From assembly GCA_964106645.2 (NCBI GenBank), contig OZ067039.1: a DNA stretch of 64,000 nucleotides; one strand, given 5' to 3'. Shown in pieces: positions 3,001-27,000 of the stretch (its first letter is position 1; the number at the start of each line of letters is the position of its first letter). Origin of the DNA: Podarcis pityusensis (lineage: Eukaryota). A program made the position numbers.

Positions 3001-6000
3001 CCCCTCTCTTCCTGTGGCGGGACAGGAAAAGCAGTGCCGCTGCCTCTACCTGTTGGCAAATAGCAATGACTGAAGAGAGTGCCCTCCTGGATCCTGATTG
3101 AGCTGCTTGGCTGTGTTTGCTCCGAGAGCAGAGCTGGGGCAGAGGAAAAGAACCGGTGATAAAATAAAAGAGAAACATGAGCCATGGAGCTGAGGTGAAC
3201 TCTCAAAACTCCAGCAAGGACAAAGGGTGTAAGATGTCGGCGCTACAGAAACTGGAGAGTCTGGCAGGGCGGATCTTTTACTGGGGGCCACGGAGTGATG
3301 CTGGGGCACCGAACGTTGGGGAGGCAGCCTATGAATCTGAGCACACGGCAGCCTGGAATGAGCAGAGTGAGTTGACAAGGGAGCACGGTTTCCAGGGGTG
3401 CCAGAATCGGTGGGTTCCCCCGAGGCTCTGCTCCAGAACTGCTGCTGTTCTGTGCCTCTTGGTGCATGCATATGCTTGTGGTTAAGTGTGTAACTGGAAT
3501 CTGAAATAGGGCTCTGATATTTTTCAGAGAAGCCCGCAAGTGGCTATAGCCTTAGCTCTGACAGCCATTCTGGCTATGACTGTTGACTACCTCTTTCCTC
3601 AGGCTAAGCTAAAGTTTAGGGTGCTCAACTTTAATGAGGCCACAGCTGCTTGGTGTGTGGCTTTGATTTTGGCCTTAGAGAAGCCCCATCGGTTCTCAAA
3701 AGCCCACTGCAACTTCTTACTATTTGTTATCATCTTTACAAGCTCTAACTCTACAAGTGTCTATTGCACAGCGTAGAGGTGGGGAGCCTGTAACTCTCCC
3801 AAAGTCGTTGGGCTTCTGCTTCTATCAACCCTGGCCCAAATAGCCAATAGGAAGGGATGATGTGAGTTGTAGCCTAGTAACATTGGCGGGGCACAAGTTC
3901 CCCATCCCTGACCTAGAGAAAGGCTAGCTGGAGCGTTCCTGGATGTTCTCCCACATTTTGGGGGAAGAATTGCAACTTTTTGGGAAGTTGTTGGCAAATG
4001 TCATTATTAAGAAGCAAATTCTCTTTGCCTGTGTGTGTTTCAAAACTTTCTTCCCATTTTGACAGTTTTTCCTCCGGCCTCTCCAACTGATGTTGTCACT
4101 TTAGCTGTTTTGGTTAAAATGTGTGGTCAGAGTTGTTGACATAGGGAATTTCAGTCTGAGGTTGACAGAGTTGTGAGTGAAAGTCATGGGCTGATGATTG
4201 TTGCTTTTTCCTCTTTGCTGCCACTACCAGTCAGGATTGTAGCTTTTGTTGTTGACTTGATGTGATGTCATATTCTATTTCTGTCACTGGCTGTATCTTA
4301 ATTCATGGTGTTGTCTACCTCTAGGGTGATGGGTCGTAAATAGATGGTAGGTCTTCTATTGTTCTGTCTGGACCACACATTACTCCTTCATCTAAGGCAA
4401 AAGGGAGTGAATGCAGTCTTTTCTTGGATCCTCAAGTATGTTTAAACAAAACTGTCACAATGTTTTGGCAATGCTGCTTAGTCTAAAATAGAAGCTTGTA
4501 GAACATCTGATGCCAGATTCTTCTTTGGCCCCTTTAATCTTTTGGCATTGACACCTCCTCCATGCTGCATCTGAGTGTGTTGCACATGAAGGAGAGTGTT
4601 CAAAACCACCAGCAGCACATTTTGGAACTATTTAGCATATACAATACACATGTAGATTCTGTTCAACATTTACATGAAACTGCTGACAGAGGTCATTTGT
4701 AGATTTTGGCTGTGGAGTCATCAGTATGCAGATGACAGCCACCTGTCTCTCATTTTCATTTGTTCCTGTAAGATAGTTGAAAGGCTGAATCGCTGTCTGA
4801 TATCTGTGATGGACTGGATAGGGTGCAATGAGGGGAAACATAATTCAGACAGAAGAGGTACTGTTGGTAGTTGGACCATGTGATATGAGATTGTTTTTGC
4901 AGCCTGTTATGAGTGGAAAGTGTGAAAGTGCAGGTACTTAGTTTGGGGATGCTCCTTGATCTGGGTCCTGTTTCTGCAGGTGGTGAGGGGTGCCTTTTCC
5001 CGGTATCACCAGGTGCAACAGCTACCATCCTCCCTGACACAGGGGAATCTTGCCACAGTCATTCATCCTCCTCTAGTGACCTTCAGATGACAGTGCTGTA
5101 ACTGTTTATGTGGGGCTGCCTTTCAAAAGTGTTTGGAAACCTCAATTAGTTGCTGCTAGAATGCAAGGCACTTTGAATCTGTAATGAATGTATATGAATG
5201 CTGATTCTACATGATTTTCACTAGCTGCTGATTAGTTTTCATGTTCAGTTGCCTTGAACCCTCTTGTGAGGAACCCCAGGCTTTTGCCAGAGTTCGGCCT
5301 GCTCCAGAGAGGGTGCTCACCACACAACACCCTGCCTCTTCTTAGCCAGGCAGATAATAAATCAGAACTCCAGCTAACACTGCACAACTCTCTGGGTTCC
5401 TGAAGACCAGAAGGTCACTGCAGGGCCGGTCCCTTTGCATCAGCCAATCCACCCAATCTAACACACAGCAAGGCCATTACCTGTAATGCGCATCTGCCAT
5501 CAGCTCTGTCTTCTTTTGGTTTTTTATTTATTTCAAGATCAGAGCACTTGGGAAATGTGAAGTGCTTCCGATCTCCTCCGATGTTTCCAAAATTGACAAG
5601 CCAATTGGAGCAGCTCATTTCAACAGTATAATGTAAGACAGTAGGGGGTCATTTTGTTGCTGCCATTGGCAAGGATTTCTAATCCTTAGTTTTTTAATAA
5701 TCTACTATAAATCCCTTGGGGATCTGTTAGTAGAGTATCTTCAGCCCACCCCTGGCCTAGAGCATAAAAATACAGGGTAACGTCATGAATGATTGGTGGC
5801 TATTTAGCTTCCTGCATAGTTTCATTTGAATTAACTAATTAAGCAACTGCAGTAGGATTAGATTTCTCTGGATCTCTCAGTGATCCCTGTATTTCATGTT
5901 TATTAAATCCTCATAAAGAAAGCATGCTAGTTAAATCAGGGTGGGTTTTGTCTACCCTGCTAAGCACTGAAAAATTTGTTTCTGTTTTTCAGAGATGTCC

Positions 6001-24000: not shown

Positions 24001-27000
24001 ACAGAGGGCTATTGCATTGCCTCTTGGTAGTCTGTTCTCCAGGATGTAAAATTCACTGACTCCTTCAACCTTCCCCCAAAGAGTTTGGTTTCCAGGCTCT
24101 TCATCATCATGGTTGCCCCTCTCAGAAAACATTCCAGGAGCGAGGCAACCCTTTAGAAAGTGGGGGTGTGAAAATTGCTTGGGGTTCCTTCCCAGCTCAG
24201 CAAGGGGTACCAGTCTAAGAATGCATCCAGCCCCTTCCTAGTTAATCAAGCAGTACTGCTTTGCCAGTGAACACAACCTTTTGGTGTTGGCAGAACGCTG
24301 TGTTACATAGATGGAGAAGCTGGAAGAGGGAGTTTAGTATGCCAATTCTGCTTTCTAAAGCCCAGCCCTCAGCTACTTCTGGAAATAGCCTCTGCCAGAG
24401 TCCCCAAAACTCTAGTTTATATCATGACAAAAAAAACAAAACTAAACTTGGATGATGTTCAGCTTGCATAATACACAGAATTAGCATATAATTATTTGAT
24501 CACTTTTAATCAGCCAAATTTATTTAATTAACTGATTAGATTATGACTCCAATTGTCTTCAGAACCCGCACAAGTGGTAACAGCATGGGGTATTATTTCT
24601 ATTGTGCAGCTGGAGTAGAGAGAAAAGGATGGGGTTCATGGGATACAGGTGAATGATTAGGATGAGTTAAGGGTAATTCTCTCTCTCATTTACCTGTTTA
24701 CCTCTAGATCCTTTAGAAGACATTGAATCCACTTTCCTAAGCTTTATCTTTCCTTTGTGGCCATGACTGCTAGAAACTGTCTAATTTGAGGCAGTCACGC
24801 CCAGTTGGGTGTTCTCATCTGCAGCTATATTTGACATGTTTCTGTCGGCAGTAGATGGGTTTTTCAGCCCCAAACCTGTTTGGACATGGAGCATTTCCTT
24901 GGTTCTGTGAATTTTCTGCTCTCAAGAACCCTCTTTGTCATTGTGCTTGGTGCCATTACATACCTGTAGCTTCAAAAAACCTGATTATGCAATTTAGAGA
25001 GTGTACAACTATCTACGTGGTAGCCTTCCTGCTTTGGATACATGGAGTGTGTTGGAGCACCAGGTAGTTTCTCTTAGACACAAGACTACCTTCCAGGTTG
25101 GATCTGATCTTTTGTACATTATAGAACACAAGGTATGCAGTGGCCATGCCGTGGCTGCTAGTGTCTGCATACAGGTCATCAGTTGGTTTGCAGTCAGGAT
25201 GATATTGGGAGCCCTTAGTTCAGTGCTGGTGGATGTGTGGCTCTCTAAATGTCTATTCCAGCTTCAGCTAGTGGTCGGGGAAGGTGGGAATTGCAGTCCA
25301 GCAGCATCTGGAGGGCCACAGGTCCCCTCTCCCCCATGTTTCAGTCACTGTCTCAGCACATGGCAGGTGCTTTAACCATGAGTAGCTCACCTGTGACTGG
25401 GAAACTTTAGAGTCTCTGAGTCTTGAATGATTCCACTTTACCTCTCATGATTGACATTATTGGCTGAAATCCAGAAGGGCCCATGCTTCCCCAGATTCTT
25501 CTCAGAATTTCATTCCACAGCTCCTAAATGTCTCTTTCAAAAATAAGTTTGGGGGTTGTGGCATGAGAACCTTTTTGAAGGGGAGAAGCTGCTAAGAAGG
25601 GGAGAAGCTGCCAGTACATGGAACTGCCAGTCTTAAAAGTCTCTAGTTGTGTGTGTGTATTTTTGAAACTTGCAGAGCACCTTCTGAGTTGGAAACTGAG
25701 GAGAAAATGTGTGCATGCAAACAGATGGGACATACAGTGGTACCTCGGGTTAAGTACTTAATTCGTTCCGGAGGTCCGTTCTTAACCTGAAACTGTCCTT
25801 AACCTGAAGCACCACTTTAGCTAATGGGGCCTCCTGCTGCCGCTGCACCGCCGGAGCACGATTTCTGTTCTCATCCTGAAGCAAAGTTCTTAACCTGAGG
25901 TATTATTTCTGCACAAGGGCTTCTATATGTGCAACAGGGCTTCCCCCTCTCCCACATGCACCCTGAAATTGTCTCGAAGGGGTTGGGGTACCCCCAGAAC
26001 AGCATGGAGGGGAGGGAGGGAGATGGTTCCATCTGGCAAGTGGAAATCCTTGCATAGGCAGAGCGTTTGTCATGGTGCAGCATTGAATTTCACATCTGTA
26101 TGACTCCTCAAAAGCCTTGCAAATGAGTGGCATGGATGTGGAGAGAGTGGGGCCTGCCTTCCTTTTTCATGGGTTTACTTATTCCCTGCTCTTGCTTTAA
26201 ATGGGTTTCATGGGTTTACTTATTCCCTGCTCTTGCTTTAAAAGGCTGGAGGTCCCAATGTGGCCCAAAGTTGTCTGTGACTTGCAAGGATTGGGCACAG
26301 GTTGGCCCCCAAAATAAGCAACATGGTGACAGACCTAAAGCTGAGCAGCCGTGATCTTTAGCAGAGGTGACCGGTTGCTACTGTATTCTCCAGGCTGGAT
26401 TTAGGGCTCCAGTGGTAACACAGACTTCTCAGATATTGATTGTGCATATTTCCACAGGCCAGCAGTTGGCCATTTCTCATCTAGAGTCTCATGGCTGAGC
26501 CTAAAAGAGGGGGCTGTGTGTCTGCTCTCTGCCCTCCAGGGAATGTTTGCTCCTTGGGAATCCGACTTGTTGAAAGGTGTTGTCTTCCCCTTTCTGGCCT
26601 TCCTGCTGGGAATGCATCCTCCGTTCCTGGTGATTCAGCAAATAGGCCCGTCAAAGAAATGAGAGCTGGCAGACTTGAAGGGGACTCCTGTTTCCCAACA
26701 TAGCCTCTTTGACTCCTAAGGAGTGTTCAGCAGCTCAGGCCTTCAGGCAACATGCTCTCTTGTCAATGCTCTTTCTCTGCCTCTGCTTACTTACAGTGAA
26801 GGAGTTTCTTGCCAAAGCCAAAGAAGAGTTCCTCAAGAAATGGGAGAACCCGTTGCAGGTATGACACCTCTCTTCTCGTCTTGATATTTTGCCTTCCTTC
26901 CTTTATCTAGCCATAGCAGCCTGGGTCTTGTTGCTTCTAAGCTCTTAGGCCTGATTTGAAAGTGACACTGACCTGGTTTGCATGCAACCATCAGCCAGAG

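What the first reader, a model, noticed from the sequence alone, without database searches (positions are those of the whole stretch)
3177..26858. Possible PRKACB-style multi-promoter N-terminal cassette system on PRKACA
Seen: upstream of exon 2 there is one long Cbeta2-like exon, then paired mini-exons (13156, 13257) and further phase-1 ATG+donor candidates (11059, 20040); the main ones sit in or near CpG-enriched patches or TF motifs. Established: PRKACB has the order 1-1, 1-2 (long), then closely spaced short exons 1-4/1-3, whereas human PRKACA is known mainly for Calpha1 and sperm Calpha2. Inference: this lizard PRKACA may keep the ancestral architecture and produce several non-myristoylated, tissue-specific kinases from one gene.
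Basis: inference. Interest (0 to 1): 0.7.

Follow-up and report, generated by a model that had tools for sequence, protein, structure and literature searches.

The report
Lizard PRKACA alternative first exons
This lizard protein kinase A gene has a long alternative first exon and probably one tiny one upstream of exon 2, an arrangement already described for non-mammalian vertebrates in 2017, so it is ordinary.

Summary
The window holds a PKA catalytic-subunit alpha gene (PRKACA) on the + strand, with exon 2 at 26797-26858, exons 3-10 up to about 38.7 kb, and SAMD1 downstream.

- **Long exon, real.** ATG 3177 to the phase-1 donor after 3366 encodes 63 residues. They are 84% identical, over full length, to the N-terminus of an annotated 399-aa Anolis carolinensis PKA C-alpha protein. 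They carry the conserved ALQKLE..A.R.F helix and the Trp shared with C-beta2.
- **Already published.** This is PRKACA "exon 1-L" (C-alpha-L), described by Soberg et al. 2017 (PMC5526564). That paper also reports short "1-S" exons between 1-L and exon 2 in vertebrate genomes for which it had genomic data.
- **One short candidate has outside support.** ATGGATG|GTAAGG at 13156 gives M-D-(V)KEF. A Podarcis muralis model and a Dermochelys model both start MDVKEFLAKAK. The motif occurs once in the window, in its second-most CpG-enriched patch.
- **The other short candidates have none.** 13257, 11059 and 20040 exist as written but match no protein model.
- **Statistics.** ATG-plus-donor sites are more frequent upstream of exon 2 than elsewhere, but not specifically in phase 1.

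The parts
3165..3167 (+). In-frame TAA just upstream of the long exon's ATG. The reading frame cannot continue from an upstream coding exon.
   Evidence: The stop-to-stop ORF starts at 3168; sequence.
3177..3366 (+). Coding part of PRKACA exon 1-L (C-alpha-L N-terminus): 63 codons plus 1 base, phase 1. The split codon A|TG gives Met. The 5' end of the exon (transcription start) is unknown.
   Evidence: Translation P0001. 84% identity over 100% of the query to Anolis carolinensis PKA C-alpha, 399 aa, E = 4e-27. tblastn of that protein places residues 1-63 here. The Anolis junction reads NEH-M-KEF.
3237..3278 (+). Segment SALQKLESLAGRIF, the conserved putative amphipathic helix of C-alpha-L and C-beta2.
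   Evidence: It is the only block conserved with the Xenopus C-beta2-like N-terminus. tblastn of that N-terminus hits 3240-3278, E = 0.01. It has the highest hydrophobic moment of all 14-mers (0.57); 74 of 2000 shuffles reach it.
3367..3372 (+). Donor GTGAGT of exon 1-L.
   Evidence: Homology to the Anolis protein ends exactly here. The donor score is only 2.8 on my recalled matrix.
12856..13255 (+). CpG-enriched patch around the 13156 mini-exon: GC 0.59, CpG observed/expected 0.54, 19 CpG. A possible promoter of exon 1-S.
   Evidence: 95th percentile of 400-bp windows, but below the usual CpG-island cut-off of 0.6.
13156..13162 (+). Coding part of a probable PRKACA exon 1-S (C-alpha-Short): ATG GAT G, then GTAAGG. 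It gives M-D-(V)KEFLAKAK.
   Evidence: Podarcis muralis UniProt A0A670K8E7 (P0008) starts MDVKEFLAKAKEEFLKKWENPLQ, which equals this mini-exon followed by the window's exon 2. Dermochelys coriacea 'alpha-like isoform X2' (P0124) also starts MDVKEF. ATGGAYGGT occurs once in 64 kb, here.
13257..13263 (+). Candidate mini-exon ATGTATG|GTGAGA (M-Y-V). Unsupported.
   Evidence: Present, donor score 4.7. None of the protein models I fetched starts MYV.
11020..11059 (+). Candidate exon with the best donor in the intron (CAG|GTAAGT). It would give MRLNVVPSMVLDS(V), or MVLDS(V) from ATG 11044. Unsupported.
   Evidence: score 8.6. CpG observed/expected 0.19. No Pfam match to the surrounding ORF. None of the fetched models has this N-terminus.
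20034..20040 (+). Candidate mini-exon ATGGCAG|GTGAGC (M-A-V). Unsupported.
   Evidence: score 7.0. CpG observed/expected 0.27. None of the fetched models starts MAV.
16085..16117 (+). They lie in what looks like a SINE copy, so I read them as decoys.
   Evidence: A second, similar element lies at about 15800-15920 (by eye). The repeat's identity is recalled, not tested. CpG observed/expected 0.10.
26797..26858 (+). PRKACA exon 2, the common acceptor for all first exons: (V/M)KEFLAKAKEEFLKKWENPLQ.
28709..38719 (+). PRKACA exons 3-10. Approximate tblastn extents: 28709-28843, 28936-29037, 31157-31240, 32374-32505, 33013-33150, 33228-33395, 36323-36493, 38594-38719. Some extents run a few codons into introns.
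   Evidence: tblastn of Anolis P0002; kinase motifs.
46222..47355 (+). First coding exon of SAMD1, the downstream neighbour, inside a CpG island at 45601-47800. It supports the PRKACA locus identity.
   Evidence: Pfam SAMD1_WH E = 1.9e-27 and SAMD1_SHD E = 5e-18. CpG island with GC 0.70, observed/expected 0.96.

Best explanation
The window is the PRKACA locus of a lacertid-like lizard, from intron 1 onward. The canonical myristoylated exon 1-1 lies upstream of the window.

Several alternative first exons are each spliced in phase 1 to the common acceptor of exon 2 at 26797. This puts different N-termini on one invariant kinase core.

Two such exons are present in the window:
1. **Exon 1-L (3177-3366).** It gives C-alpha-L, a 63-residue, non-myristoylatable extension. 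By the published prediction the extension is largely disordered. It carries an amphipathic helix (SALQKLESLAGRIF) and a Trp four residues before the junction. It is the paralogue of PRKACB exon 1-2 (C-beta2).
2. **Exon 1-S (13156-13162).** It gives C-alpha-Short, starting M-D-V, with neither a myristoyl group nor an extension. It sits in a weakly CpG-enriched patch.

The other ATG-plus-donor sites (13257, 11059, 20040, 16085, 16105, 688, 2877) are most likely chance or repeat-borne.

**Shown here:** the sequence features, the homology and the gene identity.
**Inferred:** that 1-L and 1-S are transcribed from their own promoters and spliced to 26797. For 1-L this rests on the annotated Anolis protein and on the transcript evidence reported in the 2017 paper. 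For 1-S it rests on two gene models.
For: **Gene identity.**
- Exon-wise tblastn gives 345 of 380 identical residues to Pogona alpha and 344 of 379 to Anolis alpha. It gives 334 of 395 to Crotalus beta.
- Exon 3 is the clearest: 43-44 of 45 against alpha, 36-37 of 45 against beta.
- SAMD1 lies downstream.

**Exon 1-L.**
- The search with the 63-residue exon returned 2 hits among 21 candidates. One is Anolis PKA C-alpha, 399 aa: 84% identity, 100% coverage, E = 4e-27. The other is a partial Caretta protein: 65% identity, E = 3.5e-13.
- Alignment gives 53 of 63 residues identical to Anolis, 35-37 of 61 to two turtle proteins and 17 of 63 to a Xenopus C-beta2-like N-terminus.
- The invariant block is LQKLE..A.R.F. 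The window, Anolis and Xenopus align a Trp near the junction. Anolis and Xenopus have Met at the junction, as the window's A|TG split codon would give.
- The in-frame stop at 3165-3167 makes ATG 3177 the first possible start.
- Soberg et al. 2017 describe exactly this exon, its position, its loss in birds and mammals, the helix and the Trp. The 2018 review repeats this (passages).

**Exon 1-S.**
- Of the 120 hits listed from 852, the only lacertid entry (P0008, Podarcis muralis) starts MDVKEFLAKAKEEFLKKWENPLQ. Its tail reads through intron 9, which suggests a transcript-derived model.
- A turtle RefSeq-style model (P0124) starts the same way.
- Only one site in the window can encode MD plus a phase-1 GT.
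- That site lies in the 95th percentile for CpG observed/expected.
- The paper places 1-S exons between 1-L and exon 2.
Against: **No direct transcript evidence.**
- No RNA-seq, CAGE or genome alignment was available, so no splice junction or promoter in this window was observed directly.
- The MD start rests on two automatic gene models. The turtle one belongs to an 'alpha-like' paralogue.
- A two-residue match has roughly a 1 in 20 chance per candidate.
- The 2017 paper's Fig 2C, which lists the Anolis C-alpha-Short peptide, is an image, and supplements are closed. I therefore could not check that the published reptile 1-S encodes MD.

**Weak signals at the supported exons.**
- The 1-L donor scores low (2.8) on my recalled matrix.
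- The 13156 ATG has a weak Kozak context (C at -3).
- ATGs lie upstream of it at 13043 and 13096 (read), and they would be in the 5'UTR if transcription starts far upstream.

**Against dismissing the other sites.**
- With the 1-L donor set aside, 8 of the 14 strong + strand donors upstream of exon 2 have an open phase-1 ATG within 15 codons.
- Elsewhere in the window the count is 2 of 54 (Fisher p = 1.5e-5).
- Phase 1 has the highest count at all 12 threshold settings I tried.
Confidence: 0.75

Rival explanations
1. Lizard PRKACA carries a PRKACB-like array of four or more short alternative first exons (13156, 13257, 11059, 20040, perhaps others), each with its own promoter. They yield several tissue-specific, non-myristoylated kinases.
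For: - All four sites exist with usable donors, and they rank among the best in the intron.
- 8 of 14 strong donors upstream of exon 2 have an open phase-1 ATG, against 2 of 54 elsewhere. Phase 1 is the top phase at every threshold tried.
- Shuffles reach the intron count in 1 of 100.
- The 2017 paper found two separate short 5' exons in several amphibian transcriptomes, so more than one 1-S is not unprecedented.
Against: - Only 13156 matches any retrieved protein model.
- Phases 0 and 2 are also elevated in the same region: 5 of 14 and 3 of 14.
- The threshold was chosen after seeing the candidates.
- Two of the eight sites (16094, 16117) lie in a SINE-like repeat.
- 11059 and 20040 lie in CpG-poor sequence.
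- Soberg et al. state that they found no reliable data for further splice variants.
- 13257 lies 101 bp downstream of 13156. From a shared promoter it would sit behind an upstream ATG.
Confidence: 0.12
2. Only exon 1-L is real. The MD mini-exon at 13156 is an annotation artefact: gene builders added a tiny exon to supply a start codon. The match to the window is coincidence.
For: - The match is only two residues.
- Automatic models of this gene are noisy. Anolis P0006 starts with read-through of the intron just before exon 2 (its N-terminus hits 26766-26798, E = 7e-7). By my reading of its sequence, the Sphaerodactylus P0018 start looks like the same artefact.
- The Dermochelys model is an 'alpha-like' paralogue.
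Against: - Two independent pipelines in two reptile orders give the same MDV start.
- The Podarcis model has a 98-residue intron-9 read-through tail. A protein projection would not produce that.
- The site is unique in the window and CpG-enriched.
Confidence: 0.12
3. The gene is PRKACB, not PRKACA, and the long exon is simply the known exon 1-2 (C-beta2).
For: The long exon resembles C-beta2, with 17 of 63 residues identical to a Xenopus C-beta2-like N-terminus.
Against: - The best hits are named alpha.
- Exon 3 matches alpha at 43-44 of 45 residues and beta at 36-37 of 45.
- Exons 2-10 span only 12 kb.
- SAMD1 lies downstream.
- The long exon is 84% identical to the Anolis alpha protein.
Confidence: 0.01

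Closest known systems
PRKACA exon 1-L / C-alpha-L (Soberg, Moen, Skalhegg, Laerdahl 2017, PLoS One, PMC5526564)
   Same: - A long first exon upstream of exon 2 in PRKACA of a non-avian, non-mammalian vertebrate.
- About 63 residues with no N-terminal Gly.
- A conserved helix segment, and a Trp close to the junction.
- A phase-1 junction.
   Different: Nothing of substance. This is the orthologue in another lizard, 53 of 63 residues identical to Anolis. Its position relative to exon 1-1 cannot be seen, because exon 1-1 lies outside the window.
PRKACA exon 1-S / C-alpha-Short, including mammalian exon 1-2 / C-alpha2 (same paper)
   Same: - A very short first exon lying between 1-L and exon 2.
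- Phase 1.
- No myristoylation site. The paper gives human C-alpha2 as (M)ASNSSD(V), and here the peptide is M-D-(V).
   Different: - It is shorter, at 3 codons including the split one.
- The paper says that orthology with mammalian exon 1-2 cannot be determined.
- Expression in this species is unknown. The paper found testis-specific expression only in mammals.
PRKACB 5' exon array: 1-1, 1-2, 1-3, 1-4 plus cassette exons a, b, c
   Same: - The order is myristoylated exon, then long exon, then short exon(s), then exon 2.
- The long exons are paralogous.
   Different: - PRKACB has two established short first exons plus a cassette. Here only one short exon has any support.
- No a/b/c-like cassette was looked for.
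- Exons 2-10 here span only about 12 kb; my recollection that PRKACB is a much larger gene comes from no call.

Membership tests
PRKACA (PKA C-alpha gene) | The kinase core is closer to C-alpha than to C-beta orthologues. | tested here: met
   Exon 3 matches alpha at 43-44 of 45 and beta at 36-37 of 45. Exon 10 matches alpha at 39-40 of 42 and beta at 36 of 42. Exon 2 matches Pogona and Crotalus alpha at 20 of 22 and Crotalus beta at 17 of 22. All the best database hits are named alpha.
PRKACA (PKA C-alpha gene) | Conserved synteny with SAMD1 immediately downstream. | tested here: met
   SAMD1_WH and SAMD1_SHD domains at 46222-47355 on the + strand. The tail of a Crotalus adamanteus alpha model matches the window at 45966 onward, which suggests the same adjacency in a snake. 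The human gene order is recalled, not tested.
Exon 1-L / C-alpha-L | A long (about 60 codon) ATG-initiated exon 5' of exon 2, joined in phase 1. | tested here: met
   3177-3366 is 190 nt, with GTGAGT following. The split codon A|TG gives Met, as in the Anolis (NEH-M-KEF) and Xenopus (DRT-M-KEF) proteins.
Exon 1-L / C-alpha-L | A conserved putative amphipathic helix with Lys/Arg at position 21 and Phe at position 30 (human C-beta2 numbering). | tested here: met
   ALQKLESLAGRIF aligns with Xenopus ALQKLEGFANRLF. K of LQKLE and the final F are present. I inferred the numbering from the paper's text, not from a human sequence. Hydrophobic-moment maximum.
Exon 1-L / C-alpha-L | A conserved Trp near the junction (Trp59 in human C-beta2 numbering). 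| tested here: met
   The window has AAWNEQ|, Anolis AAWNEH and Xenopus CIWDRT. The two turtle 'alpha-like' sequences lack it.
Exon 1-L / C-alpha-L | Lies between exon 1-1 and exon 2. | tested here: inconclusive
   It is 23.4 kb upstream of exon 2. Exon 1-1 (MGNAATAKKGGEIESV in other squamates) is not in the window, so it must lie upstream, but the order was not seen.
Exon 1-L / C-alpha-L | Present in mRNA. | not testable with these tools
   No transcript data for this species. The Anolis protein model and the paper's transcript evidence are indirect.
Exon 1-S / C-alpha-Short | At most 8 codons including the start and split codons, phase 1, no myristoylation Gly. | tested here: met
   13156-13162 is ATG GAT G|GT, or 3 codons.
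Exon 1-S / C-alpha-Short | Located between exon 1-L and exon 2. | tested here: met
   13156 lies between 3366 and 26797.
Exon 1-S / C-alpha-Short | Seen in transcripts spliced to exon 2. | not testable with these tools
   Indirect evidence only: the Podarcis (P0008) and Dermochelys (P0124) models start MDVKEF.
PRKACB-style multi-exon array | Two or more short alternative first exons in use. | tested here: inconclusive
   One exon is supported. The others rest only on ATG-plus-donor statistics: 8 of 14 against 2 of 54, not phase-exclusive.
PRKACB-style multi-exon array | Internal cassette exons (a, b, c) combined with the short first exons. | not tested
   No search for cassette exons was made.

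The most novel reading that the evidence does not exclude
Squamate PRKACA uses more short first exons than the single 1-S now recognised. For example, the perfect-donor site at 11059 would give MVLDS-V and the site at 20040 would give MA-V. The excess of open phase-1 ATGs before strong donors upstream of exon 2 (8 of 14 against 2 of 54 elsewhere) would then reflect a real, evolving pool of alternative N-termini like that of PRKACB.

A related possibility is that the M-D-V exon shared by a lacertid and a turtle model is an orthologous amniote 1-S. 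That would settle an orthology question the 2017 paper called intractable.
Probability: 0.12. Interest if true: 0.35.

Novelty: already known. Interest (0 to 1): 0.15.

Why it matters
PKA C-alpha is a model kinase, and its N-terminal variants decide myristoylation, use of the hydrophobic pocket and probably localisation.

Non-mammalian vertebrates keep a C-beta2-like long form and a short form of C-alpha. That is relevant to the evolution of PKA signalling, but it was published in 2017, and the Anolis protein is already in the databases.

This window adds only another species' copy. It also gives a concrete genomic address for a likely lacertid exon 1-S encoding M-D.

Tried and rejected
1. **Exon 1-1 in the window.** The pattern ATGGGNAAYGC with 1 mismatch gave 2 hits. 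Neither lies upstream of exon 2, and chance would give 7.4. tblastn with the squamate and turtle exon 1-1 peptides gave nothing better than E = 2. Exon 1-1 is therefore outside the window.

2. **Cluster members.** Isoforms hidden inside 90% clusters stayed unseen.

3. **Other N-termini against the window.** I ran tblastn with the N-termini of 15 sauropsid and amphibian models. Part of that output was cut.
   - In what I saw, only two matches were meaningful: Anolis P0006, which is intron read-through before exon 2, and the Xenopus helix segment.
   - The Vipera, Gekko and Chelonia N-termini found nothing convincing.

4. **Self-BLAST of the window.** It gave 4 non-self HSPs and none at any candidate. 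It could not show whether candidates sit in repeats. The repeat calls at about 16.0-16.15 kb and 23.0-23.4 kb are by eye and recall.

5. **Pfam.** ORFs around 11059 and 20040 gave no family.

6. **Rfam.** The whole window at gathering threshold gave 0 matches.

7. **Spliced model.** I neither built nor searched one. The window was searched exon by exon, and only with the exon 1-L translation. Whole database proteins (Anolis P0002, Podarcis P0008) served as queries instead. An exact-match look-up of full isoforms was therefore not done.

8. **Vertebrate genomes and transcripts.** Conservation of intron 1 stayed unchecked.

9. **Hits left unfetched.** Unnamed hits (lgn, metaclust, ena, jgi, merc) and the Homo sapiens row were not fetched or used.

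Full report
**What is in the window**

The window has no N. A PKA catalytic-subunit gene lies on the + strand.
- Kinase motifs ([29 protein letters not shown]) sit in separate open stretches between 28.7 and 33.3 kb.
- tblastn with an Anolis carolinensis PKA C-alpha protein (P0002, 399 aa) lays out ten coding exons. They are 3177-3366, 26797-26858 (exon 2), and then eight more ending at 38719.
- Exon 2 follows an AG, starts in phase 1 and ends CAG|GT.

The gene is alpha, not beta.
- Exon 3 matches three squamate alpha proteins at 43-44 of 45 residues and three beta or beta-like proteins at 36-37 of 45.
- Exon 10 matches alpha at 39-40 of 42 and beta at 36 of 42. Some HSPs for exons 7 and 8 run into introns, so the summed figures are rough.
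- The next gene downstream, at 46222-47355 on the same strand and inside a CpG island (45601-47800, GC 0.70, observed/expected 0.96), is SAMD1. Pfam gives SAMD1_WH at 1.9e-27 and SAMD1_SHD at 5e-18.
- That SAMD1 follows PRKACA in human is my recollection.

**The long exon**

ATG 3177 to base 3366 is 190 nt and is followed by GTGAGT. An in-frame TAA sits at 3165-3167. The 63-residue translation is P0001.

I searched with this exon alone, among longer proteins. The search returned 2 hits out of 21 candidates:
- Anolis PKA C-alpha: 84% identity, 100% coverage, E = 4e-27.
- A partial Caretta protein: 65% identity.

The aligned N-termini show:
- 53 of 63 residues identical to Anolis, 35-37 of 61 to two turtle proteins, and 17 of 63 to a Xenopus C-beta2-like protein;
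- an invariant block LQKLE..A.R.F;
- a Trp four residues before the junction in the window, Anolis and Xenopus.

The split codon A|TG gives Met, as in the Anolis and Xenopus proteins.

SALQKLESLAGRIF has the largest helical hydrophobic moment of any 14-mer in the exon. 74 of 2000 shuffles reach it.

**This is published**

Soberg et al. 2017 (PMC5526564; I read the outline, sections 7, 8, 9, 12 and 13, and passages of 3, 5, 6 and 11) report the following.
- They name this exon PRKACA exon 1-L and its product C-alpha-L.
- They show it is paralogous to PRKACB exon 1-2, and that it was lost in birds and mammals.
- They describe the helix, Lys/Arg21, Phe30 and Trp59.
[quoted passage not shown] Where genomic data exist, these lie between 1-L and exon 2, which is the PRKACB order.
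- They found no reliable evidence for further 5' variants.

A 2018 review repeats this (PMC6143667, passages only). A full-text search for "exon 1-L" together with PRKACA found only these two papers.

**The short candidates**

| Site | Sequence | Peptide |
|---|---|---|
| 13156 | ATGGATG\|GTAAGG | M-D-V |
| 13257 | ATGTATG\|GTGAGA | M-Y-V |
| 11059 | CAG\|GTAAGT, ATGs at 11044, 11020 and further up | MVLDS-V and longer |
| 20040 | CAG\|GTGAGC, ATG at 20034 | M-A-V |

Only 13156 has outside support.
- I searched with the exon 2-3 region of the Anolis protein. There were 852 hits and 120 were listed. I fetched named sauropsid, Xenopus and one shark model from them.
- The single lacertid entry, Podarcis muralis A0A670K8E7 (P0008), begins MDVKEFLAKAKEEFLKKWENPLQ. 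That is this mini-exon followed by the window's exon 2.
- Its C-terminal 98 residues are read-through of intron 9. They match the window at 82-91% with frame changes. Exon 5 differs at 2 of 28 residues. The window is therefore a related lizard, not the same one.
- A second search among shorter proteins gave 623 hits, 120 listed. It yielded a Dermochelys coriacea "alpha-like isoform X2" that also starts MDVKEF.
- ATGGAYGGT occurs once in the 64 kb, at 13156.
- The 400 bp around it have GC 0.59 and CpG observed/expected 0.54, the 95th percentile of the window.

None of the 44 named sauropsid, Xenopus and shark models I fetched starts MYV, MAV or ...LDSV.

Some other short starts in models are artefacts.
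- Anolis P0006 (MLFLCLCFLAV) is the intron just before exon 2; its N-terminus hits 26766-26798.
- The Sphaerodactylus start MTVFLV looks like the same artefact. That is my reading of the sequence, not a test.

**Chance**

I used a donor matrix that I recalled, for ranking only.
- Intron 1 has 636 ATG-to-phase-1-GT combinations, and 14 of them score 4 or more.
- Six distinct donors score at least 4.7 and have an open ATG within 15 codons. Shuffles give 1.6 +/- 1.3, and 1 of 100 reaches 6. The minus strand of the intron has 1.
- Across the window, 8 of the 14 strong + strand donors upstream of exon 2 (the 1-L donor set aside) have such an ATG. They are at 688, 2877, 11059, 13162, 13263, 16094, 16117 and 20040.
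- Elsewhere the count is 2 of 54 (Fisher p = 1.5e-5). Phase 1 is the top phase at all 12 threshold settings.

Against reading much into this:
- phase 0 gives 5 of 14 and phase 2 gives 3 of 14 in the same region;
- I set the cut-off after seeing the candidates;
- 16094 and 16117 lie in what looks like a SINE, with a second copy about 200 bp upstream (identity recalled, not tested).

The excess is real as a count but unexplained.

**How it most likely works**

Alternative first exons are each joined in phase 1 to exon 2 and put different N-termini on one kinase core:
- the myristoylated C-alpha1, from an exon 1-1 upstream of the window;
- C-alpha-L, from 3177-3366;
- C-alpha-Short, from 13156.

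Use of separate promoters and tissue specificity are inferred from the literature, not shown here.

**What stayed unchecked**
- I had no transcript data and no vertebrate genomes.
- Cluster members could not be listed.
- Fig 2C and the supplements of the 2017 paper could not be seen.
- I left out the joined step.

**Verdict**

The architecture is already known.

Noticed in passing
window 45601-47800 and 46222-47355 (+): A strong CpG island (GC 0.70, observed/expected 0.96) holds the first coding exon of SAMD1 (WH and SHD domains), downstream of PRKACA on the same strand.
   Followed up: partly
window 45966-46110 (+), compared with protein P0007: The odd C-terminal tail of the Crotalus adamanteus 'PKA C-alpha' model (539 aa) nearly matches an out-of-frame translation of the SAMD1 5' region here. 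The match was seen by eye. That snake model therefore looks like a PRKACA-SAMD1 annotation chimera.
   Followed up: no
window 15800-15920 and 16020-16150: Two copies of a SINE-like element (identity recalled, not tested).
   Followed up: partly
window 23001-23400: This is the only other patch in intron 1 passing GC >= 0.5 and CpG observed/expected >= 0.6 (0.69, 18 CpG). No ATG-plus-donor candidate lies in it. The sequence looks like a young repeat (recall), not a promoter.
   Followed up: no
window 688 and 2877 (+): Two more open phase-1 ATG plus donor sites lie upstream of exon 1-L, giving MFNPFCVFK-V and MNAIVQG-V. They contribute to the unexplained excess of such sites upstream of exon 2.
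   Followed up: no
window 63490-63999 (-): An open-ended 169-aa acidic, Ser/Pro-rich ORF on the minus strand at the window's end. It has no Pfam match and may be an exon of the next gene.
   Followed up: no
window about 39650-39760 (+): A dinucleotide microsatellite, read as a run of SL repeats in the ORF at 39489-39857, lies about 1 kb past the PRKACA stop codon. That is probably in the 3'UTR.
   Followed up: no
proteins P0124-P0136, P0055, P0060 and others (turtles): Turtles show many 'PKA C-alpha-like' models with varied short N-termini (MDV, MEAGV, MQEF, MEEF), and some with a 1-L-like exon lacking the Trp. This suggests extra PRKACA-like copies in turtles.
   Followed up: no
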